Shown: piece after piece, positions 1 through 63,270 of the stretch
How the letters are laid out: each line of letters starts with the position of its first letter
How positions within the stretch are numbered: the first letter of the stretch is position 1
Translations under genes and position numbers: made by a program
Notes under the pieces: generated by a model
What the model was told of the DNA's origin: nothing
Database searches by the model: none
Seen by the model: only the letters and a program-made list of their open reading frames with translations
Assembly: GCF_988242995.1 (NCBI RefSeq)
Contig: NZ_OZ547043.1
Length of the DNA: 64,000 nucleotides
Strand: one strand, 5' to 3'

Positions 1-452
1 CGTTTAAGGAGGTTTCAGCAGTAAGCCTGAATGGTGTTGCCGGAGGTAACGGTTTTTGTATCGACAGTTTTGATATTCAGTTCGATAACAAACTCCAGAC
101 ACAGCGTTGTATCGGGACTGGCTCGCCTTATGCAGGAGCAAATATTCCGACTACTTTTACACCGTCCGGTACGGTGACGCTTTCATGGTCTAAAGCCGCG
201 TGGGAAATCTGGAGTAAAACACTGACTGGAGAAACAGTTCCGTTCAGCTTCACGCTTTCGAATGGAGAGGGGGCATACACTTTCAGTTTCCCGAAGGTTC
301 AGGTGTCAGGTGAATGGCCTGATGGGGGTAATAGCGACATTATCCAGGTTCAATTGAGCATTACCGCAGCAGATGAAGCACCTACGATAACCAGAAAAAA
401 AAATTCCCCGGCTGCCGTGATCGCAAAAGCCAGTGCTGAGGCGATTAGTTGA
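1..452 (+). CDS. Phage major tail protein (lambda V-like), 3' fragment; the gene starts upstream of the window
   Basis: Reading frame is open from position 3 to the stop at 450-452; it sits immediately upstream of the G/GT-H-M-L-K-I-J block, as V does in lambda. Identity inferred from position only. Confidence 0.45.
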   Translation, partial: FKEVSAVSLNGVAGGNGFCIDSFDIQFDNKLQTQRCIGTGSPYAGANIPTTFTPSGTVTLSWSKAAWEIWSKTLTGETVPFSFTLSNGEGAYTFSFPKVQVSGEWPDGGNSDIIQVQLSITAADEAPTITRKKNSPAAVIAKASAEAIS

Positions 453-500: not shown

Positions 501-962
501 ATGAGGTTATGGATGTTTATTCTTAATCAGAAAATTATCATTGGTGGAGAACGCTGGTTTACGCCAATGAAGGACTTAAAACCTGTAGACGGGTTAAAAC
601 TGTTGGTGGTAAGCAGCGATAACGATCAGTATCGCTCCCGTAATGCATTAATCCGTCGCCACATTGAGAAAATGGATGCCAGTTTGCACGTCGGAACGAA
701 GGAGTTTGATATTTCAAAGGTTTCCGAGGTGGATTCTGTTGATGATTTACTCATTGATAATGCCGCTCGTTATCTGCTGAAAGACTGGAAAGGGGTTGGT
801 GAACTGGTTAATGGTGTTGAGGTTGCACTGGAATATACGGCAGAACGAGGGATCGCGCTGCTTAAGCAGAATCCAGAGTTGTACTGGCAGATCCTTGCAG
901 AAGCAGCCAGCATCGCCCAGGGTAAAGAGCAGCAGAAGCAGGATACGATAAAAAAGCCATAG
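501..962 (+). CDS. Tail assembly chaperone (lambda G-like)
   Basis: 153-aa ORF directly upstream of the tape measure gene; it ends just after an in-frame A_AAA_AAG slippery heptamer, and the -1 frame continues open into the next ORF (G/GT architecture). Confidence 0.6.
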   Translation: MRLWMFILNQKIIIGGERWFTPMKDLKPVDGLKLLVVSSDNDQYRSRNALIRRHIEKMDASLHVGTKEFDISKVSEVDSVDDLLIDNAARYLLKDWKGVGELVNGVEVALEYTAERGIALLKQNPELYWQILAEAASIAQGKEQQKQDTIKKP

Positions 963-1270
963 CTGCCCAGCGGTGGTTATCGGAGTTCGGGGGAGAAAGG
1001 GGGGAAAAGGCAAGATGGAAGCGAGAAAAACTCAGGTTGCCACCGATACCGGAACCAGAAATAGACCCGGTGCTTAAGGAGTTGTTGTACGCCTATTCGG
1101 TAATATCCCGTGCCCGACGTTATGCTGGAATGGCTGGGGTGCCTTTGCCTTTATCTCTGACAGAGATAAATGAATATTTAGCCACTCATCCGGTATTGAT
1201 TGAGCGCGATGAATTTGAAGCAGTGATCTTTGCACTGGATGACCAGTATTTTCAGGAGCAGTGTGTGTAG
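501..1270 (+). CDS. Tail assembly chaperone GT fusion, predicted product of a programmed -1 ribosomal frameshift
   Basis: The -1 frame is open from 956 through the 77-aa ORF 1037-1270 (which the track starts at TTG); I checked codon by codon for stops between 956 and 1037 and found none. Confidence 0.45.
950..956 (+). other. Putative -1 frameshift slippery heptamer A_AAA_AAG
   Basis: Codons ata-aaa-aag sit in the G frame at 948-956, three codons before the G stop; the heptamer is the same type as the dnaX frameshift site. Confidence 0.5.
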
Positions 1271-1390
1271 TTGTTAATTACGTACACTCTGTTACAGAGA
1301 TGTGATTGTGTCTTTAATTAAATCGATGATGCTCCTGGAGAAAAGCATTGCGTGGCCTCGTAATCGCTATATCTACTATTATGTCGCCTG

Positions 1391-1416
1391 AAACCCACTT
1401 CGCGGTGGGTTTTTTG
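1391..1416 (+). terminator. Terminator-like hairpin plus T-tract about 20 nt upstream of the tape measure start
   Basis: aacccac-ttcgcg-gtgggtt stem-loop followed by TTTTTTG; an AGGAG ribosome-binding site follows before the ATG at 1436. Confidence 0.35.
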
Positions 1417-1435
1417 TTGTCAGGAGTTTTAATAA

Positions 1436-4400
1436 ATGGCAGAGCAAACCTCGCGTCTCGCAATAATTATTGATAGCACTGGAGCGAAAAATAATGCTGA
1501 CAATCTGACCTCCTCATTAGTCAAAATGACGCAGGCTGGGGAAACTGCTGCAAATAGCGCAGGGAAAGTGACTAAGGCAACAGAAGATGAGAAGAACGCG
1601 CTCGCAAAATTAAAAGCAGCTATTGATCCAGTTGGTGCCGCAATTGATACTGTCGGTCGACGCTATTCTGAATTAAAGAAATTTTTCGATAAAGGGCTTA
1701 TTGATAAAGAAGAATATGAATTTCTTGTCCGTAAACTTAATGAAACCACAGAGGAATTGAGCGGGGTTGCGCAAGCGCAGAGAGAAGCCGAGAAGGCCGG
1801 AAAACTTGCTGCCGCCCAGCAGGAAGCGCAGGCTCAGGCCTTTCAAAGAATGCTGGACAAGATCGACCCTCTGGCTGCGGCGCTAAGAAATCTTGAACAA
1901 CAGCATGATGAACTTAATGCTGCGTTTGCATCCGGGAAAATAAATGGTTCTCAGTTTGAGAATTATAGCCGAAAAATACAGGAAACACGGCGAGAGCTTA
2001 CCGGAGAGGCTCAGGCAGAGCGAGAAGCAGCAAAAGCGCATGATGAACAGGTTGTTGCTTTGCAACGTCTGATTGCTCAACTTGATCCTGTCGGAACTGC
2101 TTTTAATCGTCTGGTAGAACAACAGAAACAGCTCAATGAAGCAAAAGCTAAGGGGATGCTTTCTCCTGAAATGTATGAGGAGCTTTCTGGAAAACTTCGT
2201 GCTATGCGGAGTGAGCTTGAGGTTACTCAATCACAATTAAGCAAAACCGGAATGTCGGCAAAACAAACGGCTTTTGCTATGCGCATGTTGCCTGCACAAA
2301 TGACGGATATTGTTGTTGGGTTGTCCACTGGTCAGTCGCCATTTATGGTGTTAATGCAGCAGGGCGGCCAGCTAAAAGATATGTTCGGTGGGATTGGCCC
2401 GGCGATCAAAGGTGTAGGTTCTTATGTGCTGGGATTAATTAATCCTTTTACCCTGGCCGCAGCAGCCGTTGGGGTCTTAGGACTGGCTTACTATAAAGGC
2501 TCTCAGGAGCAGGACGAATTTAATAAATCTCTTATTCTTACCGGAAATCAGTTGGGGACAACCAGCGGGCAATTGGGCGATATAGCTCAACGTGCCGGGA
2601 ATGCGGCTGATTCGACAACTGGTGCTGCGGCGGCAGTATTAAATCAGCTTGTGCGTTCGGGAAAGGTAGCGAGCAGTTCGCTGGAGCAAGTGACGACAGC
2701 GATAGTAAAAACGAGCGAAGTAACAGGAATATCAACCGAACAACTGGTTAATGACTTCAATGAAATTGCAAAGGATCCTGTCAGTGCCATATCAAAACTT
2801 AATGATCAGTACCATTTTCTGACACTTGCGACTTATAACCAGATTAAGGCGCTACAGGATGAAGGGAACCAGCAGGAGGCCGCCCGCATTGCGACAGAAG
2901 AATACTCATCCTCAATGATCCAGCGCACCAACCAGATTAAAGAAAATCTTGGTTATCTTGAGACTGCATGGAAAGCTGTCGCAGACTCCGCAAAATGGGC
3001 ATGGGATTCCATGCTGGATATTGGCCGTGAGGCCTCCCTTGATCAAAAAATCTCAGATGTTCTCCGTCAAATTGATGAAATAGAAAAAAATACCCGACCC
3101 GGAGTTTTCGGGTTAGGTGGCATTGGAGATGGCGGAGCTCAAAATAAAAGGCTGGCACGATTAAAGCAGCAATTGGGCGTACTTCAAGCAGAAAAAATTG
3201 CTCAGGACGTACTAAATTCATCAATAAACGATTACAACAAGCGACAACAGGAAGGAATTGAACTCAGACAGAGAGCAGATGCCTTTTCAAAACAATATCA
3301 GACCCGGGAGCAGCAGAGAGCTAGTGAACTTGCAAAACTGGAAAAGCTAAAGAATCAGTATTCAAAGGAAGAATATAATAATCTTATCGCTCAAATAAAT
3401 GAGCGTTATAAAGATCCAAAGCAACCAAAGGCGAAAGGTTATTCTGATGATGCAGCCCAACGAATGATTGATCATCTGAATCAACAGAATGCGTTACTAA
3501 GTTCACAAGCTGAGTTGACCGTTAAATTAAGTTCCTCTGAACAGGAACTGGTTAAGTGGCGTCAGCGGATTGCCGACCTAGAGTCACGACCATCATCGAA
3601 ATTAACCCAGGATCAGAAATCGCTTCTCTTACACCGGGAAGAAATAACCGCGTTGATGGAGAAAAATGTTGCGATTGAAAAGAATAACAGGCTAATCAAG
3701 GAATCCGCCGAAATAACAGCATGGCGTGATTCATTGCAGGCTTCGATTGATAATCGTCAGCAGGGGTATGATATTCAGATTGCTGGTTATGGGGTTGGCG
3801 ATAAAAATCAGCAACGCCAGCAGGAATTACTGCGGATTGAACATGGATATAACAATCAGCGTCTGCAACTTGAACGTGACTATGCAGATAAATCCCGTGG
3901 AATGTCAGATCATGTTTTTCAAGAGAAAATGCAGGCTCTGAATGATGCTCTGGAACGGGAAAAAGAAATTGTCAGACAGAAAAACGAGCAGCTCGATATT
4001 CAGGCAGGAGACTGGGTTAGTGGTGCCTCCCAGGGATTCAATAACTGGCTGGATGACACTAAGGATATCAGTGAGCAGATAAAATCAACCACGACTCAGA
4101 TGTTTGATGGGATGACCGATGCGCTGGGTGATTTTGTCACGACAGGCAAGGCAAATTTTCGTTCTTTCGCTACTTCCGTGATTTCGGATCTTAGTCGAAT
4201 AGCATTAAAGGCTTCAATTACTGGGATTTTCGACAGCATTAGTAACAGTTCTTCTGGGGGGATTTTAGGAACTATCGGGAGTGCTATTAGTAAATTTATT
4301 CCGAATGCAAAGGGCGGTGTTTATGAGTCTCCGTCATTGAGCACGTATTCGAACGGTATTTATGATTCCCCGCAATTTTTTGCTTTTGCAAAAGGGGCTG

Positions 4401-4669
4401 GTGTTTTTGGTGAGGCTGGACCGGAAGCCATTATGCCATTAACACGAACTTCCGATGGTTCTCTTGGTGTCAGAGCTATTAATAGTAAAAGTGGTAATGG
4501 AGGCGGAGATATTACCTATGCCCCTGTATACCAAATCACTATTCAAAATGACGGCCAGAATGGAGAGATTGGCCCTCAGGCAATAAAAGCACTTATGGGG
4601 ATGGTTGATCAGCGGGTGCAGGGCACTCTGTTAAATATGCGACGTGATGGGGGAATGTTAAGTGGCTAA
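1436..4669 (+). CDS. Phage tail tape measure protein (lambda H-like)
   Basis: 1077-aa ORF, coiled-coil-rich N-terminal half and Gly-rich C-terminal part; sits between G/GT and M. Confidence 0.85.
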
Positions 4670-10000: not shown

Positions 10001-10441
10001 GGAAAACTGTCCGCGAACCAGATTGAAGGCGATCTCGTTAAAACAGTGGGCAAAGCTTTCCCCCGTGACTCCCGGGCACCGGAGCGGTGGCCATCAGGGA
10101 CCATTACCGTCAGGGTTTATGACGATCAGCCGTTTGACCGGCAAATTGTTATTCCGGCGGTGGCATTCAGTGGCGCTAAGCATGAGAGAGAGCATACTGA
10201 TATTTACTCCTCATGCCGTCTGATAGTGCGGAAAAACGGTGCTGAAATTTATAACCGTACCGCGCTGGATAATACGCTGATTTACAGTGGCGTTATTGAT
10301 ATGCCTGCCGGTCACGGTCACATGACACTGGAGTTTTCGGTGTCAGCATGGCTGGTAAATGGCTGGTATCCCACAGCAAGTATCAGCGATTTGCTGGTTG
10401 TTGTGATGAAGAAAGCCACTGCAGGCATCACGATTAGCTGA
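7046..10441 (+). CDS. Host specificity protein J (central tail fibre / tip attachment protein)
   Basis: 1131-aa ORF; N-terminus [34 protein letters not shown] and most of the length are lambda J-like from memory; the last ~150 aa diverge. Confidence 0.9.
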
Positions 10442-11166: not shown

Positions 11167-13530
11167 GTGGATATGGCAGCAGTAAAAATCTCAGGTGTGC
11201 TGAAAGATGGTGCGGGAAAACCAATACAGAACTGCACTATTCAACTGAAGGCAAAGCGTAACAGCACCACGGTACTGGTGAACACGGTGGCCTCTGAAAA
11301 TCCGGATGAAGCCGGGCGTTACAGCATGGATGTTGAGTATGGTCAGTACAGCGTCACCCTGCTGGTTGAAGGTTTTCCGCCTTCACATGCCGGGACCATT
11401 ACCGTCTATGAAGGTTCCAGACCAGGTACGCTGAATGATTTTCTCGGTGCCATGACGGAAGATGATGTCATGCCGGAGGCATTGCGTCGTTTTGAGGCAA
11501 TGGTGGAAGAAGCGGCACGCAACGCCGAAGCCGCCTCTCAGAGCGCAGCAGCGGCAAAGAAATCCGAAACTGCAGCGGCATCATCGAAGAACGCGGCGAA
11601 AACCTCAGAAACAAATGCAGCTAACAGCGCACAGGCGGCAGCGTCCTCGCAGACTGCATCGGCAAACTCCGCGACAGCAGCCAAAAAATCAGAAACCAAC
11701 GCGAAAAATAGCGAGACAGCCGCAAAGACGAGCGAAACCAACGCAAAGTCCAGCCAGACGGCAGCGAAAACAAGCGAAACGAATGCCAAAGCCAGTGAAA
11801 CTGCGGCAAAAAACAGCCAGGTTGCAGCAGCCCAAAGCGAGAGCGCGGCAGCCGGTTCTGCGACTTCAGCAGCTGGATCAGCAACTGCTGCGGCTAACAG
11901 CCAGAAAGCTGCGAAGACGAGTGAAACTAACGCAAAGTCCAGCCAGACGGCAGCGAAGACCAGCGAAACGAATGCCAAAGCCAGCGAAACTGCGGCGAAA
12001 AACAGTCAGGATGCAGCAGCCCAAAGCGAGAGTGCTGCAGCTGGTTCTGCCACTGCATCAGCCAACAGTCAAAAAGCAGCAAAAACCAGTGAAACCAATG
12101 CAAAGACAAGCGAGACTGCAGCGGCGAACTCGGCGAAAGCATCCGCTGCAAGCCAGACCGCTGCAAAAGCAAGTGAAGACGCAGCCAGAGAGTATGCAAG
12201 CCAGGCAGCAGATCCGTATAAATATGTCTTACAGCCGCTGCCTGATGTGTGGATACCGTTTAACGATTCACTGGATATGATTACGGGCTTTTCGCCATCA
12301 TATAAAAAGATTGTTATTGGTGACGACGAAATAACGATGCCTGGCGACAAGATTGTTAAGTTTAAACGTGCATCGAAAGCAACCTATATTAACAAATCTG
12401 GTGTGTTGACAGAGGCTGCCATTGATGAGCCACGATTTGAACGTGATGGCCTGCTTATTGAGGGGCAAAGAACTAATCTTCTGCTTAATTCAACAAATCC
12501 ATCTAAATGGAATAAGTCAGGCAATCTGGAACTCACAGAAATATCCACGGATTCTTTTAATTTTACTTATGGGAGATTTACTGTAAAAGATACTCTTATT
12601 GGTCAGACAAGTGCTATTAATATCGTAACGATTTCTGGCAGTAAAGGGTTTGATGTCACAGGTGATGAAAAATATGTGACCATTTCATGCCGTGTAAGAA
12701 GTGATGTTGAAAATATAAGGTGTCGTTTAAGATTTGAACACCATGATGGTTATACTTACACTTTTTTGGGAGATGCTTACCTCAATTTATCAACACTTGT
12801 AATTGATAAAACTGGTACTGCTGCAGACCGTATTATTGCAAAGGCTGTAAAAGATGAGGTTACTGGTTGGATTTTCTATCAGGCTACAATTAATGCACTA
12901 GATACAGAGAGCATGATTGGTGCGATGGTTCAATACGCTCCTGTAAAAGGTTCAGGTACAGCATCTGGAGACTATCTGGATATCGCAACTCCACAAGTGG
13001 AAGGTGGATCAAGTGCTTCGTCATTTATTGTAACTGATATAACTGCAAGCACTCGCGCAAGCGATATGGTGACAGTCCCAATCAAGAATAACCTTTATAA
13101 TCTTCCTTTTACGGTTCTTTGTGAGGTACATAAGAACTGGTATAAAACGCCAAATGCAGCACCGCGTGTTTTTGATACCGGCGGTCATCAAACCGGAGCG
13201 GCTATTATTCTTGGCTTCGGTCGTTCAACAGATTACGACGGATTTCCTTATTGTGATATAGGTTTGGCTAACAGACGGGTAAACGAAAACGCATCGCTTG
13301 AAAAAATGGTTATGGGGATGCGTGTAAAGTCAGATCAGTCTACGTGCTCAGTAAGTAACGGGCGTATATCCAGCGAAAAGAAAGCCACATGGTCCTATAT
13401 TCAGAACTCCGCAATTATCCGTATTGGAGGCCAGACTACAGCCGGGTTGCGTCATTTATTTGGTCATGTCAGGAATTTCAGAATATGGCACAAGGCATTG
13501 ACTGATGCTCAGATGGGGGAGTCAATCTAA
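11167..13530 (+). CDS. stf: Side tail fibre protein (Stf-like) with a replaced C-terminal receptor-binding region
   Basis: 787 aa; N-terminal region with Ala/Ser/Thr-rich KTSETNAK-type repeats typical of Stf; the C-terminal ~400 aa are markedly AT-richer by eye and end in a motif (GHVRNFRIWHKALTDAQM) reminiscent of ConA/LamG-like lectin folds. Confidence 0.8.
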   Translation: MDMAAVKISGVLKDGAGKPIQNCTIQLKAKRNSTTVLVNTVASENPDEAGRYSMDVEYGQYSVTLLVEGFPPSHAGTITVYEGSRPGTLNDFLGAMTEDDVMPEALRRFEAMVEEAARNAEAASQSAAAAKKSETAAASSKNAAKTSETNAANSAQAAASSQTASANSATAAKKSETNAKNSETAAKTSETNAKSSQTAAKTSETNAKASETAAKNSQVAAAQSESAAAGSATSAAGSATAAANSQKAAKTSETNAKSSQTAAKTSETNAKASETAAKNSQDAAAQSESAAAGSATASANSQKAAKTSETNAKTSETAAANSAKASAASQTAAKASEDAAREYASQAADPYKYVLQPLPDVWIPFNDSLDMITGFSPSYKKIVIGDDEITMPGDKIVKFKRASKATYINKSGVLTEAAIDEPRFERDGLLIEGQRTNLLLNSTNPSKWNKSGNLELTEISTDSFNFTYGRFTVKDTLIGQTSAINIVTISGSKGFDVTGDEKYVTISCRVRSDVENIRCRLRFEHHDGYTYTFLGDAYLNLSTLVIDKTGTAADRIIAKAVKDEVTGWIFYQATINALDTESMIGAMVQYAPVKGSGTASGDYLDIATPQVEGGSSASSFIVTDITASTRASDMVTVPIKNNLYNLPFTVLCEVHKNWYKTPNAAPRVFDTGGHQTGAAIILGFGRSTDYDGFPYCDIGLANRRVNENASLEKMVMGMRVKSDQSTCSVSNGRISSEKKATWSYIQNSAIIRIGGQTTAGLRHLFGHVRNFRIWHKALTDAQMGESI

Positions 13531-20910: not shown

Positions 20911-21138
20911 TGAATAAATCCTTTAGTTATTTTATTTGCCTTTTCATCCCCATTTTGGGGAGTGAAAGCATCCTAAAGGAGAAGTTCAGTTAGCCGATAA
21001 ATATCATTTGTTACGCCTTAAGTAAAACCTTAATCAAATAATTCTTCTGAAATGATAATAAGTCTGGTGAATGTATTGAAGATAATACATACAAAATAAA
21101 AATTATACTTTTAATTTGCTATACGTTATTCTGCGCGG

Positions 21139-21248
21139 GTTATATGCCTTTATTGTCACAGATTTTATTTTCTGTTGGGCCATTGCGTTGCTACTGATTT
21201 TCCAACAAATAATGAGACAAGCCCGAACAGTCGTTCGGGCTTTTTTTT
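21139..21248 (+). ncRNA. micC: MicC small regulatory RNA
   Basis: Starts GTTATATGCCTTTATTGTCACAGATTTTATTTTCTGTTGGGCCATTGC and ends in a GCCCGAAC-AGTC-GTTCGGGC hairpin plus T8; matches the MicC sequence I recall and its known location between ompN and ydbK. Confidence 0.8.
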
Positions 21249-21276
21249 AGAATTGGATAATCCTTATCCAGTGCAT

Positions 21277-33049: not shown

Positions 33050-33762
33050 AATAAATATCCTCCGGCATAGCCGGAGGTTTTTCAAATGCGCCTATAAGGC
33101 TCTCTTACCAGCCGCGCCCTAACAGGCGCACACGATCTGACATTTGCATCCAACTTCGTTACTTACGGCCCGTAAACGGGCTGCCCGGATAGGGAATCGA
33201 TAACTGCTCTCCCATTTTATCCTCTTCAAGCTGGTGCTTTATGTAATCCTGTATCTTCGCCGTGTTCTTACCCACTGTATCGACGTAGTACCCTCTGCAC
33301 CAGAACTCCCTGTTCCTGTATTTGAATTTCAAATCACCAAACTGCTCGTAAAGCATCAGACTGCTTTTCCCTTTCAGATATCCCATAAACCCGGATACGC
33401 TCATTTTGGGCGGGATCTCCACAAGCATATGGATATGATCTGCACAGCATTCAGCTTCCAGAATCCGTACGCTTTTCCACTCACACAGCTTTCTCAAAAT
33501 ACTGCCTATTGCTCTACGCTTCTCTCTGTAGAACACCTGTCTTCGGTATTTTGGCGCAAAAACTATGTGATATTTACAGTTCCATCGGGTGTGCGCTAAG
33601 CTCTTTTCGTTCCCCATTGGGACCCCCTTTTGATTTCTTGTTTGACACTTGCAGTTGCCAGACCGCAAAGTGTTTTAACAAATCAAAAGGGGTTTTAATA
33701 ACTGGCTCAAAGCTGAAAGCTTTCCGGAACCCCCAGCCTAGCTGGGGGTTTTCTGTGCACAA
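33050..33762 (-). mobile_element. IS200-type insertion sequence (IS200/IS605 family), copy A
   Basis: ~713-bp unit whose reverse complement matches 62558-63270 along its whole length by eye; encodes a 152-aa HuH Y1 transposase; sits between convergent feaB and tynA. Confidence 0.8.
33159..33617 (-). CDS. tnpA: IS200/IS605-family transposase TnpA (Y1 HuH)
   Basis: 152 aa from MGNEKSLAHTRWNCKYHIVFAPKYRRQVFY; the track ORF has an upstream extension. Confidence 0.85.
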   Translation of the reverse strand: MGNEKSLAHTRWNCKYHIVFAPKYRRQVFYREKRRAIGSILRKLCEWKSVRILEAECCADHIHMLVEIPPKMSVSGFMGYLKGKSSLMLYEQFGDLKFKYRNREFWCRGYYVDTVGKNTAKIQDYIKHQLEEDKMGEQLSIPYPGSPFTGRK

Positions 33763-50120: not shown

Positions 50121-53100
50121 ATGCAAAGGAAAACTTTATTGTCGGCCTGTATTGCATTAGCTCTGAGTGGTCAGGGTTGGGCGGCAGATATCACAGAGGT
50201 AGAAACCACCACAGGTGAAAAGAAAAATACTAATGTGACTTGTCCGGCAGATCCAGGAAAACTCAGTCCGGAAGAGCTTAAACGCTTACCCTCTGAATGC
50301 ACCCCTTTAGTCGAACAAAACCTGATGCCATGGCTTGCCACAGGCGCTGCTGCGTTAATCACGACCTTAGCCGTAGTGGAACTAAACGACGATGATGATC
50401 ATCATCATCGCAACAATTCTCCACTCCCACCGACGCCCCCTGATGATGATTCAGACGACACTCCAGTGCCCCCAACTCCTGGCGGAGATGAGATAATACC
50501 GGACGTTCCGGATGATACGCCTACACCTCCCAAACCGATTTCGTTTAATAATGACGTTATTCTCGATAAAACAGAAAAAACGTTAACTATTCGCGATTCA
50601 GTTTTTACTTATACCGAGAATGCTGACGGGACTATTTCTCTGCAAGATAACAGTGGTCGTAAGGCAACGATTAATCTTTGGCAGATTGATGAAGCGAATA
50701 ATACTGTTGCCCTTGAAGGTGTGAGCGCAGATGGCACAACAAAGTGGCGATATAATCACAACGGTGAGCTTGTTATAACGGGTGATAATGCCACAGTAAA
50801 CAACAATGGCAAAACCACCGTTGACGGTAAAGACTCCACCGGCACGGAAATCAACGGTAATAACGGAAAAGTTATCCAGGACGGCGATCTGGATGTCAGC
50901 GGCGGCGGTCACGGCATTGATATCACCGGCGACAGCGCGACGGTGGATAACAAGGGCACCATGACCGTCACCGATCCGGAGTCCATCGGTATTCAGATCG
51001 ACGGCGACAAGGCGGTTGTTAACAACGAAGGCGACAGCACCATCAGCAATGGTGGCACCGGCACACAGATTAACGATGATGATGCCACGGCGAATAACAA
51101 CGGCAAAACCACCGTTGACGGCAAGGATTCCACCGGTACAGAAATCAACGGTAATAACGGGAAGGTTATCCAGGATGGCGATCTGGATGTCAGCGGTGGC
51201 GGTCACGGGATTGATATTACCGGCGACAGCGCAACGGTGGACAACAAGGGCACCATGACCGTCACCGATCCGGAGTCCATGGGGATCCAGATCGACGGCG
51301 ACAAGGCCATCGTCAATAACGAAGGCGAGAGCACCATCACCAACGGCGGCACCGGTACGCAGATTAACGGTGATGACGCCACGGCGAACAACAACGGCAA
51401 AACTACCGTTGACGGTAAAGATTCCACCGGTACAGAAATCAACGGTAATAACGGAAAAGTGATTCAGGGCGGCGATCTGGATGTCAGCGGCGGGGGCCAC
51501 GGCATTGATATCACCGGTGACAGCGCGACGGTGGATAACAAGGGCACCATGACCGTTACCGATCCGGAGTCCATCGGTATCCAGATCGACGGCGACAAGG
51601 CGGTTGTCAATAACGAAGGCGACAGTTCCATCAGCAACGGCGGCACCGGTACGCAGATTAACGGAGATGACGCCACGGCGAACAACAGCGGCAAAACCAC
51701 CGTTGACGGTAAAGACTCCACCGGCACGGAAATCAACGGTAATAACGGAAAAGTTATCCAGGACGGCGATCTGGATGTCAGCGGCGGCGGTCACGGCATT
51801 GATATCACCGGTGACAGCGCAACGGTGGACAACAAGGGTACCATGACTGTCACCGATCCGGAGTCCATCGGTATTCAGATCGACGGCGACAAGGCCATCG
51901 TCAATAACGAAGGCGACAGCACCATCAGCAACGGCGGCACCGGCACACAGATTAACGGTGATGACGCCACGGCAAACAACAACGGCAAAACCACCGTTGA
52001 CGGTAAAGATTCCACCGGTACGGAAATCAACGGTAATAACGGAAAAGTGATTCAGGACGGCGATCTGGATGTCAGCGGTGGCGGTCACGGGATTGATATT
52101 ACCGGTGACAGCGCGACGGTGGATAACAAGGGCACCATGACCGTCACCGATCCGGAGTCCATGGGGATCCAGATCGACGGCGACAAGGCCATCGTCAATA
52201 ACGAAGGCGAGAGCACCATCACCAACGGCGGCACCGGCACGCAGATTAACGGTGATGACGCCACGGCGAACAACAACGGCAAAACTACCGTTGACGGCAA
52301 GGATTCCACCGGCACGGAAATCAACGGCAATAACGGAAAAGTTATCCAGGACGGTGATCTGGATGTCAGCGGCGGCGGTCACGGCATTGATATTTCTGGC
52401 GATAATGCCGCCGTCGATAACAAAGGCAATATGACCGTCACGGACGCAGACTCGATCGGTGTACTGATCAATGGCGACAACGCGACACTTGCCAATACTG
52501 GTGATGTGGATGTCAGTAATTCAGCGACGGGATTTGCTATTACCAGCGACGAGGGGAAAATCTCCCTCGCGGGAAGTATGCAGGTCGGTGATTTTTCAAC
52601 AGGGCTGACATTAACTGGCGATAATAATAGCCTGACAATGGCAATGCAGGATCTTAATGTCGTTGGTCAGAAAGCTACAGGTATTAACGTCTCCGGTGAT
52701 GCCAACACAATTGATATAACTGGTAATATTCTGGTTGATAAAGATCAGAGCGCAGACAATGCGGCAGAGTATTTTTATGACGCTTCCGTGGGCGTAAATG
52801 TCAGTGGTCATAATAACAATGTGACACTGGATGGTAAATTAACGCTTGTTGCGGATGGTGAAACTACCACACGTGATGTCTCGAATTTTGATGGTAGCCA
52901 GGAAAATATTTCTGGTCTTATTGTTTCCGGTGATGGTAACAACATCAATCTGAATGGCGGGATTGCATTTGTTGGTGAAATAAATGCGCTGACCGATGGT
53001 TCAGCCATTGCTAACAAACGGACTTTCTTCGGTAATACGCCACTTATTGGTATTGATGGTGAATCGAAGGTATATCTGAATGGTGACTCAACGATCAGTG

Positions 53101-62528: not shown

Positions 62529-62559
62529 AACCCGGTAAGCATTTAGCGCCGGGTTTTTT
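62529..62559 (+). terminator. Intrinsic terminator downstream of hrpA
   Basis: aacccgg-loop-ccgggtt hairpin followed by T6; IS200 copy B begins in or directly after the T-tract. Confidence 0.5.
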
Positions 62560-63270
62560 GTGCACAGAAAACCCCCAGCTAGGCTGGGGGTTCCGGAAAG
62601 CTTTCAGCTTTGAGCCAGTTATTAAAACCCCTTTTGATTTGTTAAAACACTTTGCGGTCTGGCAACTGCAAGTGTCAAACAAGAAATCAAAAGGGGGTCC
62701 CAATGGGGAACGAAAAGAGCTTAGCGCACACCCGATGGAACTGTAAATATCACATAGTTTTTGCGCCAAAATACCGAAGACAGGTGTTCTACAGAGAGAA
62801 GCGTAGAGCAATAGGCAGTATTTTGAGAAAGCTGTGTGAGTGGAAAAGCGTACGGATTCTGGAAGCTGAATGCTGTGCAGATTATATCCATATGCTTGTG
62901 GAGATCCCGCCCAAAATGAGCGTATCCGGCTTTATGGGATATCTGAAAGGGAAAAGCAGTCTGATGCTTTACGAGCAGTTTGGTGATTTGAAATTCAAAT
63001 ACAGGAACAGGGAGTTCTGGTGCAGAGGGTACTACGTCGATACAGTGGGTAAGAACACGGCGAAGATACAGGATTACATAAAGCACCAGCTTGAAGAGGA
63101 TAAAATGGGAGAGCAGTTATCGATTCCCTATCCGGGCAGCCCGTTTACGGGCCGTAAGTAACGAAGTTGGATGCAAATGTCAGATCGTGTGCGCCTGTTA
63201 GGGCGCGGCTGGTAAGAGAGCCTTATAGGCGCATTTGAAAAACCTCCGGCTATGCCGGAGGATATTTATT
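62558..63270 (+). mobile_element. IS200-type insertion sequence (IS200/IS605 family), copy B
   Basis: ~713 bp, reverse complement of copy A (33050-33762); the transposases differ at one residue (Tyr vs His in CCAD[Y/H]IHML). Confidence 0.8.
62703..63161 (+). CDS. tnpA: IS200/IS605-family transposase TnpA (Y1 HuH)
   Basis: 152 aa from MGNEKSLAHTRWNCKYHIVFAPKYRRQVFY. Confidence 0.85.
   Translation: MGNEKSLAHTRWNCKYHIVFAPKYRRQVFYREKRRAIGSILRKLCEWKSVRILEAECCADYIHMLVEIPPKMSVSGFMGYLKGKSSLMLYEQFGDLKFKYRNREFWCRGYYVDTVGKNTAKIQDYIKHQLEEDKMGEQLSIPYPGSPFTGRK

What the first reader, a model, noticed from the sequence alone, without database searches (positions are those of the whole stretch)
950..1270. 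Predicted programmed -1 frameshift producing a G-T tail chaperone fusion at A_AAA_AAG
The slippery heptamer lies three codons before the stop of the G-like ORF, and the -1 frame is open from the heptamer through the 77-aa ORF at 1037-1270. This recreates the conserved G/GT strategy of long-tailed phages with a dnaX-type heptamer instead of lambda's G_GGA_AAG.
Basis: partly seen in the sequence, partly recalled or inferred. Interest (0 to 1): 0.35.

Follow-up and report, generated by a model that had tools for sequence, protein, structure and literature searches.

The report
Tail chaperone frameshift in Rac-type prophage
This is an ordinary but unannotated example of a well-known phage trick: a slippery A_AAA_AAG near the end of a tail-assembly chaperone gene lets a few ribosomes slip back one base and make a longer fusion protein, in a Rac-type E. 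coli prophage whose chaperone gene is currently labelled only "YdaY" or "hypothetical".

Summary
A_AAA_AAG lies at 950-956 in phase with the ORF 501/513..962 (AAA 951-953, AAG 954-956, CCA, TAG). The -1 frame is open from 926 to 1270 and contains the 77-aa ORF at 1037-1270.

- The ORF pair lies between a tail tube gene (ends 452) and a tape measure gene (1436-4669).
- A canonical heptamer sits at the homologous site in 80 of 80 related IMG/VR loci: A_AAA_AAG in 77, lambda's G_GGA_AAG in 3. The 0-frame stop position varies among them.
- More distant relatives (Erwinia, Pseudomonas, Acinetobacter phages, about 30% identity) keep an A_AAG-containing site at the same invariant Lys.
- Third-codon-position variability switches from frame 0 to frame -1 exactly at the heptamer.
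- Both protein halves fold like halves of annotated fused chaperones from other phages.
- No conserved downstream RNA structure was found.

The proteins show no detectable sequence similarity to lambda G or T. A_AAA_AAG in an E. coli prophage tail chaperone (ECs1801, no detectable sequence similarity to this protein) was already reported in 2014. This is therefore a new member of a known kind. Its practical value is annotation: the site is unmarked in every E. coli record opened here, and K-12 Rac ydaY carries it too. No experiment supports it yet.

The parts
1..452 (+). 3' part of the tail tube (major tail) gene; its start lies outside the window
   Evidence: Pfam Phage_tube_2 E 1.2e-11; phrog_290 E 1.1e-47; annotated 'phage tail tube protein' in identical E. 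coli records.
513..962 (+). G-like tail assembly chaperone ORF (YdaY family). The conserved start is ATG 513 (149 aa); an alternative ATG at 501 gives 153 aa. The stop is TAG 960-962.
940..943 (+). SD-like AGGA 6 nt upstream of the heptamer; a possible stimulator (inferred, untested)
   Evidence: Present in 54 of 55 unique A_AAA_AAG haplotypes and absent from the 3 G_GGA_AAG haplotypes. It falls within the 6-17 nt rule used in PMC4066793. It also encodes conserved Gln-Glu/Asp, so the conservation is ambiguous.
926..962 (+). 37-nt overlap in which both frame 0 and frame -1 are open; the shift must occur here
950..956 (+). Slippery heptamer A_AAA_AAG, the predicted -1 shift site
   Evidence: A canonical heptamer sits at the homologous site in 80 of 80 related loci. 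The Lys of its AAG codon is invariant in a 15-sequence alignment reaching 18% identity.
956..1270 (+). T-like segment, read in frame -1 after the shift: 104 codons, GCC 956 to GTG 1265-1267, then TAG 1268-1270. The predicted GT fusion is 252 aa from ATG 513, or 256 aa from ATG 501.
   Evidence: phrog_1189 E 1.4e-36; weak match to PF23812 Phage_TAC_18. tblastn matches start at residue 1 in nearly all loci. Model pLDDT 89.8 including residues 1-25. Foldseek matches to the C-terminal halves of fused chaperones.
1436..4669 (+). Tail tape measure protein gene (1077 aa), the presumed client of the chaperone
   Evidence: Pfam TMP_2 E 1.4e-81, Tape_meas_lam_C, TMP_4.

Best explanation
This is the tail assembly chaperone pair of a Rac-type lambdoid prophage, expressed through a programmed -1 ribosomal frameshift.

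Most ribosomes translating the chaperone gene (513..962) pass the heptamer, read CCA and stop at TAG 960. This gives the short G-like protein of 149 aa. A minority slip while the two lysine tRNAs sit on AAA (951-953) and AAG (954-956). They re-pair one base back on AAA/AAA (950-955). The ribosome then reads GCC at 956 and continues in frame -1 to 1270. The result is a 252-aa fusion whose junction reads ...QDTIKK|AIAAQRWLSEF....

By analogy with lambda G/GT, the shared G part would coat the tape measure protein (1436-4669). The rarer T part would recruit the tail tube protein (gene ending at 452). This would fix a many-to-one ratio of the two chaperones, neither of which ends up in the virion.

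Shown here: the sequence anatomy, its conservation, the frame switch in the coding signal, and the fold resemblance. Inferred from established knowledge: the tRNA-Lys slippage mechanism (dnaX, IS911, lambda G/GT), the binding partners, and the ratio. The efficiency is unknown. It is probably between a fraction of a percent and a few percent, because no conserved RNA stimulator was found.
For: Anatomy
- The heptamer is in phase, and frame -1 is open 926-1270.
- Gene order is tube, G-like, T-like, tape measure, then lambda-like M, L, K, I, J ORFs.

Conservation
- tblastn of the fused protein finds two-frame matches in Klebsiella (64%), Erwinia (55%), Pseudomonas (32%) and Acinetobacter (31%) phages.
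- A canonical heptamer sits at the homologous site in 80 of 80 IMG/VR loci: A_AAA_AAG in 77 and G_GGA_AAG in 3. The 0-frame stop lies 0, 1, 7, 25 or 35 codons downstream.
- Pseudomonas phages have G_GAA_AAG, Acinetobacter phages G_GGA_AAG, and Erwinia phage Gungnir39 GCA_AAG_TAA, all at the same invariant Lys.
- Acinetobacter phage TRS1 carries an annotated joined CDS here.

Coding signal
- Upstream of the site, the variable columns peak at frame-0 third codon positions (28/28, against 19/28 and 18/28 at positions 1 and 2).
- Downstream, they peak at frame -1 third positions (26/29, against 14/29 and 13/29).
- tblastn matches start at the first residue after the junction.
- No ATG occurs in the first 48 T-frame codons of any locus. 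Gene callers pick three different non-ATG starts.

Structure
- The T model (pLDDT 89.8) matches other parts of several of the same fused proteins.

Heptamer equivalence
- A_AAA_AAG and G_GGA_AAG give nearly identical frameshift efficiencies in E. coli reporters: 0.29/4.3/39% against 0.28/3.8/43% (PMC4066793 Table S3). This explains why they interchange.
Against: - No experimental detection of the fusion exists, and no paper in the searchable library links ydaY or Rac with frameshifting.
- No downstream stimulatory RNA was found. Fold z-scores are 0.17 and -0.29. The consensus fold of 10 diverged loci is -1.7 kcal/mol with no covarying pair.
- The bare heptamer gave only 0.29% shifting in one reporter.
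- There is no detectable sequence similarity to lambda G or T, so the chaperone roles are assigned by position, PHROG family and predicted fold only.
- In the 100%-identical strain PF9285, an IS1 lies in a gene upstream of the tail module. This particular prophage may therefore be defective.
Confidence: 0.9

Rival explanations
1. The downstream ORF is an independent small gene, translated from its own start (TTG 1037, GTG 1070 or TTG 1085). The heptamer would then be incidental.
For: Gene callers annotate separate 61-77 aa proteins here. A perfect AAGGAG lies at 1076-1081, 3 nt before TTG 1085.
Against: - The 27 codons between the heptamer and 1037 are conserved as protein in frame -1 down to about 30% identity, and they fold confidently (pLDDT 84-90).
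- No ATG occurs in the first 48 codons in any locus.
- The three proposed starts disagree with one another and all are non-ATG.
- The residues encoded by AAGGAG (Lys-Glu) are not conserved in the Klebsiella, Erwinia or Pseudomonas relatives.
- The 3-nt spacing is too short for efficient initiation (general knowledge of ribosome binding sites).
- Independent initiation does not explain why the heptamer is invariant.
Confidence: 0.04
2. The fusion arises mainly by transcriptional slippage: RNA polymerase adds one A in the A6 run at 950-955, rather than the ribosome slipping.
For: A run of six A residues is present. Some IS elements and dnaX homologues use A-runs in this way (reviewed in PMC5009743).
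Against: - Homologues replace the run with G_GGA_AAG or G_GAA_AAG at the same site. These keep tRNA re-pairing but leave only 3-4 A residues.
- From general knowledge, efficient polymerase slippage in E. coli needs runs of roughly 9 or more.
Confidence: 0.03
3. It is a chance arrangement, or a decayed single gene split by a frameshift mutation, with no function.
For: This is a prophage region, and many Rac-type prophages are defective, K-12 Rac among them. A variant with the two frames fused by a 35-nt deletion exists (P0009).
Against: - The same two-frame arrangement with a slip site occurs in 80 of 80 loci and across five bacterial genera.
- A near-identical stretch (95% identity or more in 1,052) is found in 1,074 of 5,426 complete E. 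coli genomes.
- It is the only in-phase A_AAA_AAG in 33,320 codons.
- Both halves show purifying-selection periodicity.
Confidence: 0.02

Closest known systems
Phage lambda G / GT tail assembly chaperones (Levin, Hendrix and Casjens 1993; Xu, Hendrix and Duda 2004, 2013, 2014; summarised in PMC5009743)
   Same: - Two overlapping ORFs lie between the major tail and tape measure genes.
- The second ORF is in frame -1 and has no start of its own.
- An X_XXY_YYZ heptamer ending in A_AAG lies near the end of the first ORF.
- Lambda's own heptamer, G_GGA_AAG, is used by 3 of 80 relatives at the same site.
- Product sizes are similar: 140 and 279 aa in lambda, 149 and 252 aa here.
   Different: - No detectable sequence similarity to lambda G or T.
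- The heptamer is A_AAA_AAG.
- The shift site is 1 codon from the stop here, against about 6 in lambda (G ends at 10133 and the shift is at 10115).
- The T part is shorter (104 against 144 aa).
- A 165-nt gap with a terminator-like hairpin separates T from the tape measure gene, whereas in lambda T overlaps H.
ECs1801/ECs1802 of E. coli O157:H7 Sakai prophage Sp9 (cluster A_AAA_AAG_25, 'tail assembly chaperone; true', in PMC4066793 Table S4)
   Same: An E. coli prophage tail chaperone with A_AAA_AAG at the very end of the gene (AGA AAA AAG TAG). The frameshift was 'safely inferred' from sequence. The gene order is the same.
   Different: The protein shows no detectable sequence similarity (BLASTP finds nothing) and is 124 aa. 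The YdaY family is not in that paper's prophage table, and the terms ydaY and b1366 are absent from its supplements.
Acinetobacter phage vB_AbaS_TRS1 TRS1_18/TRS1_19, and the Pseudomonas phage phiPSA1 / Aurca01 chaperone pairs
   Same: True distant homologues of both halves (about 31-33% identity). The shift site is at the same invariant Lys. TRS1 has an annotated joined CDS.
   Different: The heptamers are G_GGA_AAG (Acinetobacter) and the non-canonical G_GAA_AAG (Pseudomonas). The 0-frame ORF runs 20-29 codons past the site.
E. coli dnaX frameshift signal (A_AAA_AAG with an upstream SD-like element and a downstream stem-loop)
   Same: The heptamer and the slipping tRNA-Lys pair are identical. 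An SD-like AGGA lies upstream.
   Different: No downstream hairpin is supported. AGGA lies 6 nt from the heptamer, against about 10 nt in dnaX (from memory). The shifted product is longer here, not shorter. The expected efficiency is low rather than about 50%.

Membership tests
G/GT-type tail assembly chaperone pair with programmed -1 frameshift (functional class defined by Xu et al. 2004) | Two ORFs located between the major tail (tube) gene and the tape measure gene | tested here: met
   Tube gene ends at 452 (Phage_tube_2, phrog_290). ORFs at 513-962 and 956-1270. Tape measure gene 1436-4669 (TMP_2, E 1.4e-81)..
G/GT-type tail assembly chaperone pair with programmed -1 frameshift (functional class defined by Xu et al. 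2004) | The second ORF overlaps the first in frame -1 and lacks a credible start of its own | tested here: met
   37-nt overlap with frame -1 open 926-1270. No ATG in the first 48 codons in 81 sequences. Annotated starts are inconsistent.
G/GT-type tail assembly chaperone pair with programmed -1 frameshift (functional class defined by Xu et al. 2004) | A slippery sequence in the correct phase inside the overlap | tested here: met
   A_AAA_AAG at 950-956, the only canonical heptamer in the overlap.
G/GT-type tail assembly chaperone pair with programmed -1 frameshift (functional class defined by Xu et al. 2004) | The arrangement and slip site are conserved in diverged relatives while the flanking sequence varies | tested here: met
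   80 of 80 loci have a canonical heptamer, and the stop position varies. The frame switch appears in third-position variability. Distant genera keep an A_AAG site at the invariant Lys.
G/GT-type tail assembly chaperone pair with programmed -1 frameshift (functional class defined by Xu et al. 2004) | The fusion protein is produced at a low fixed ratio and is required for tail assembly | not testable with these tools
   Needs a reporter assay, a western blot or mass spectrometry, and genetics.
Tail assembly chaperone fold (HK97 chaperone, PDB 2ob9; 'conserved spiral structure', Pell et al. 2013) | Structural similarity of the G part to a solved tail assembly chaperone | tested here: inconclusive
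Lambda gpG and gpT sequence families | Detectable sequence homology to lambda G and T | tested here: not met
   BLASTP finds no alignment at E <= 100 for either half. No Pfam or NCBIfam hit for the G part.
PHROG 313 (tail assembly chaperone) | Significant profile match | tested here: met
   G part E 5.8e-46 over profile positions 13-149 of 258. T part weak: E 0.0097 over positions 173-246 of the same 258-position profile.
Pfam PF23812 Phage_TAC_18 (T part) | Score at or above the gathering threshold (27 bits) | tested here: not met
   20.7 bits, E 4.7e-4. Only 2 of 6 family members match at E <= 0.01. This suggests a distant relationship only.
dnaX-type tripartite frameshift signal | Heptamer plus upstream SD-like element plus downstream stem-loop | tested here: not met
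   The heptamer is present. AGGA is present but at a different spacing, and it is confounded by coding constraint. No downstream structure exceeds shuffled controls or is conserved.

The most novel reading that the evidence does not exclude
At one invariant lysine codon, this chaperone family has exchanged four kinds of slip site:
- A_AAA_AAG in most enteric members;
- G_GGA_AAG in some enteric members and in Acinetobacter phages;
- the non-canonical G_GAA_AAG in all Pseudomonas phages examined;
- GCA_AAG followed directly by TAA in Erwinia phage Gungnir39.

If all four are functional, the family is a natural allelic series. It would show that only the A-site A_AAG is essential. P-site re-pairing, or a neighbouring stop codon, could then be traded to tune the G:GT ratio. 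As a by-product, E. coli K-12 would contain a previously unrecognised live frameshift signal in the Rac gene ydaY.
Probability: 0.45. Interest if true: 0.35.

Novelty: new member of a known kind. Interest (0 to 1): 0.25.

Why it matters
The main value is annotation.
- A near-identical stretch (95% identity or more in 1,052) occurs in 1,074 of 5,426 complete E. coli genomes.
- In the E. coli and phage records opened here, the first gene is called 'protein YdaY' or 'hypothetical', the second half is missing or called as a short orphan, and no ribosomal slippage is marked.
- K-12 MG1655 Rac carries the same heptamer and an intact, unannotated -1 ORF after ydaY (b1366).

Recognising the pair gives YdaY a function as a tail assembly chaperone. 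It supplies a correct 252-aa product for prophage annotation. It also adds a well-sampled family in which A_AAA_AAG and G_GGA_AAG interchange at one site. It does not change the understanding of frameshifting or of tail assembly.

Tried and rejected
- Downstream stimulatory RNA: single-sequence folds of 957-1060 and 957-1000 were no better than shuffled controls. The consensus fold of 10 diverged loci was -1.7 kcal/mol with no compensatory pair. Rejected as unsupported.
- Rfam scan of the whole window: nothing at the locus.
- Homology to lambda G/T and to ECs1801: none by BLASTP.
- Pfam and NCBIfam for the G part: no hit in the local copies. The protein database lists a precomputed family, PF27119.1, that the local Pfam copy lacks, so its name is unknown.
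- Sequence search of solved structures with profiles of both halves: only noise, E >= 0.2.
- Literature: no paper in the library links ydaY or Rac with frameshifting. Xu et al. 2004 is not held, so I could not check whether Rac-type chaperones were in their survey.
- Stop-codon proximity as a required feature: rejected, because the stop lies 0 to 35 codons after the heptamer among relatives.
- Two early calls failed on a wrong frame, and one script failed on a file name. None of these affects the results.

Full report
**1. What is in the sequence**

The window opens inside a tail tube gene that ends at 452 (Pfam Phage_tube_2, E 1.2e-11; phrog_290, E 1.1e-47).

Next is an ORF at 501..962. Homologues start at the position of the second ATG, 513, and a GAGG lies 6 nt before it. 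The likely product is therefore 149 aa.

The gene ends GAT ACG ATA AAA AAG CCA TAG. A_AAA_AAG thus occupies 950-956 in the X_XXY_YYZ phase, one sense codon before the stop.

Frame -1 has a TAA at 923-925 and is then open to 1270. The 77-aa ORF listed at 1037-1270 is the distal part of this 114-codon open stretch.

After a 165-nt gap comes a 1077-aa tape measure gene (TMP_2, E 1.4e-81).

**2. Is it more than chance?**

- A_AAA_AAG occurs in phase only once in 33,320 codons of the 135 open frames of at least 100 codons in the window.
- Sharma et al. found this phasing strongly depleted in E. coli genes, z = -10.1 (PMC4066793 Table S3).

**3. Where it comes from**

- The stretch 400-1500 is 100% identical to E. 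coli PF9285. It is present in 1,074 of 5,426 complete E. coli genomes, at 95% identity or more in 1,052 of them.
- The first ORF is annotated 'protein YdaY' or 'hypothetical protein'.
- The second half is either unannotated or called as a 61- or 66-aa hypothetical protein. The start codon differs from record to record. No slippage is marked.
- YdaY is a gene of the cryptic Rac prophage. In K-12 MG1655, ydaY (b1366) ends with the same heptamer, and the -1 ORF is intact but unannotated, at 99.9% identity.
- MicC lies at 21136-21256. This fits a location near the Rac attachment region (gene order recalled from memory, not checked against a K-12 record here).

**4. Comparative test**

tblastn with the conceptual fusion protein finds two-piece, two-frame matches in several phage groups:

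| Phages | Identity |
|---|---|
| Klebsiella | 64% |
| Erwinia phage Gungnir39 | 55% |
| Pseudomonas syringae | 32% |
| Acinetobacter | 31% |

A scan of IMG/VR with a profile of the T part returned 80 loci.
- All 80 have a canonical heptamer at the homologous position: A_AAA_AAG in 77 and G_GGA_AAG, lambda's own heptamer, in 3.
- The frame-0 stop lies 0, 1, 7, 25 or 35 codons further on.
- The two heptamers encode different frame-0 residues (Lys-Lys against Gly-Lys). In E. coli reporters they shift with almost the same efficiency: 0.29/4.3/39% against 0.28/3.8/43% with no stimulator, the IS911 stimulator and the IS3 stimulator (PMC4066793 Table S3). What is conserved is slipperiness, not the peptide.

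Further out, the site varies but stays in place:
- The four Pseudomonas phages examined have G_GAA_AAG.
- The four Acinetobacter phages examined have G_GGA_AAG.
- Gungnir39 has GCA_AAG followed directly by TAA.
- All align to one invariant Lys in a 15-sequence alignment that reaches 18% identity.
- A_AAG is the most shift-prone tetramer in E. coli (PMC4066793).
- Acinetobacter phage TRS1 already carries an annotated joined CDS at this site.

**5. Which frame is coding?**

Across 61 unique sequences, the variable columns were counted by codon position.

| Region | Frame tested | Position 1 | Position 2 | Position 3 |
|---|---|---|---|---|
| Upstream of the heptamer (866-949) | frame 0 | 19/28 | 18/28 | 28/28 |
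| Downstream of the heptamer (959-1045) | frame -1 | 14/29 | 13/29 | 26/29 |

- tblastn matches begin at the first residue after the junction in nearly all loci.
- No locus has an ATG in the first 48 codons of the T frame.
- The 27 codons between the heptamer and TTG 1037 fold confidently as helices in the AlphaFold model (pLDDT 84-90).
- The region between the slip site and the '77-aa ORF' is therefore protein-coding in frame -1. The only way into it is from the upstream gene.

**6. What the proteins are**

- The G part matches phrog_313, 'tail assembly chaperone', at E 5.8e-46. That profile is 258 positions long, about the length of a fused product. The T part aligns weakly to its distal third.
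- The T part matches phrog_1189 at E 1.4e-36 (function unknown). It also matches Pfam Phage_TAC_18, but below threshold at 20.7 bits against a cut-off of 27.
- Neither half resembles lambda G or T by BLASTP.
- The G model (pLDDT 81) matches annotated tail or tape-measure chaperones in the viral structure library at E 4e-5 to 3e-3. These include the roughly 260-aa fused proteins of phages Loki, CcrColossus, Seurat and K1H.
- The T model (pLDDT 89.8) matches several of the same fused proteins: CcrColossus, Loki, K1H and UPI001CE65305.
- The two halves of this locus therefore correspond to the two halves of recognised GT-type fusions.

**7. Stimulators**

- No downstream RNA structure is supported.
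- An SD-like AGGA at 940-943 lies 6 nt before the heptamer in 54 of 55 unique A_AAA_AAG haplotypes. None of the three G_GGA_AAG haplotypes has it.
- AGGA meets the spacing rule used by Sharma et al.. It also encodes conserved Gln-Glu/Asp, so it remains only a candidate.
- Lambda G/GT is reported to shift at a low level, giving a 30:1 ratio of G to GT (PMC5009743). The absence of a strong stimulator therefore fits this class.

**8. Mechanism and rivals**

The best explanation is tandem -1 slippage of the two tRNA-Lys on A_AAA_AAG. It would yield a 252-aa GT fusion alongside the 149-aa G protein. By analogy with lambda, G would bind the tape measure protein and T the tube protein. My confidence is about 0.9.

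- Independent initiation of T is contradicted by section 5.
- Transcriptional slippage is contradicted by the G_GGA_AAG and G_GAA_AAG variants.
- Chance or gene decay is contradicted by conservation across five genera.

**9. Comparison with what is known, and novelty**

- The G/GT strategy is textbook (Levin 1993; Xu 2004; reviewed in PMC5009743).
- A_AAA_AAG at the end of an E. coli prophage tail chaperone has already been listed as a safely inferred frameshift: ECs1801, cluster A_AAA_AAG_25 (PMC4066793 Table S4).
- ECs1801 shows no detectable sequence similarity to this protein.
- I found no paper that mentions a frameshift in ydaY or in Rac-type chaperones.
- The finding is therefore a new member of a known kind. 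It is correct and useful for annotation, and unsurprising to a specialist.

**10. Limits**

All evidence is computational. The shift efficiency, the product ratio, the binding partners, and whether this particular prophage is still functional are all unknown.

Noticed in passing
window 1271-1435 (hairpin at 1390-1413, + strand): The 165-nt non-coding gap between the T stop and the tape measure start contains a strong intrinsic-terminator-like hairpin, GAAACCCAC-TTCG-CGGTGGGTTTT, followed by a T run, inside what should be the late operon. The gap sequence is found only in the E. coli/Salmonella Rac-type phages. In Klebsiella and Acinetobacter relatives the region downstream of T carries extra genes, including a membrane protein and, in phage AM106, a HicA/HicB pair. 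In Pseudomonas phiPSA1 one extra small ORF sits between T and the tape measure gene. The slot therefore looks like a site where accessory genes are inserted.
   Followed up: partly
window 897-941 (10-nt direct repeats GCAGAAGCAG at 897-906 and 932-941): Protein P0009 (240 aa, E. coli NB16F79_39920, 5 member sequences) is a natural in-frame G-T fusion. It is explained by a 35-nt deletion between these repeats. Such an allele would make only the fusion and no free G protein.
   Followed up: partly
L091 (E. coli K-12 MG1655, NC_000913.3 1425621-1426290): K-12 Rac ydaY (b1366) is an N-terminally truncated copy of this chaperone. It has the same A_AAA_AAG CCA TAG ending and an intact, unannotated 104-codon -1 ORF. 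The neighbouring ynaA is a tape measure fragment.
   Followed up: yes
window 33050-33762 and 62558-63270: A 713-bp inverted repeat at 99.7% identity. Each copy contains an Rfam STnc490 match (33627-33750 on the - strand, 62570-62693 on the + strand). These are probably two copies of a small IS200-like element about 29 kb apart.
   Followed up: no
window 50776-52484: Tandem repeats with a period of about 294 bp and about 90% identity, probably a gene encoding repeated domains.
   Followed up: no
window 11707-12062: Two adjacent copies of a 167-bp segment, 189 bp apart and 88.6% identical, inside the 787-aa ORF 11167-13530 downstream of the J-like gene. The ORF is probably a tail fibre gene.
   Followed up: no
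window 21136-21256 (+): MicC sRNA (Rfam, 124 bits). This fits a location near the Rac attachment region (gene order recalled from memory, not checked here), so about two thirds of the window would be host DNA.
   Followed up: no
L001 330-1027 (E. coli PF9285, upstream of the window start): In the strain that is 100% identical over 400-1500, an IS1A interrupts a gene about 1.1 kb upstream of the tail tube gene. PGAP calls that gene 'glutamate 5-kinase', which looks like a misnomer for a head-tail module gene. This copy of the prophage may be defective.
   Followed up: no
L006, L007, L093, L094 (Pseudomonas syringae phages phiPSA1, Aurca01, Cruim01, psageK9): All four have G_GAA_AAG at the homologous shift site. 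This is not a canonical X_XXY_YYZ heptamer, because P-site GAA would re-pair on GGA. None has a joined CDS annotated.
   Followed up: partly
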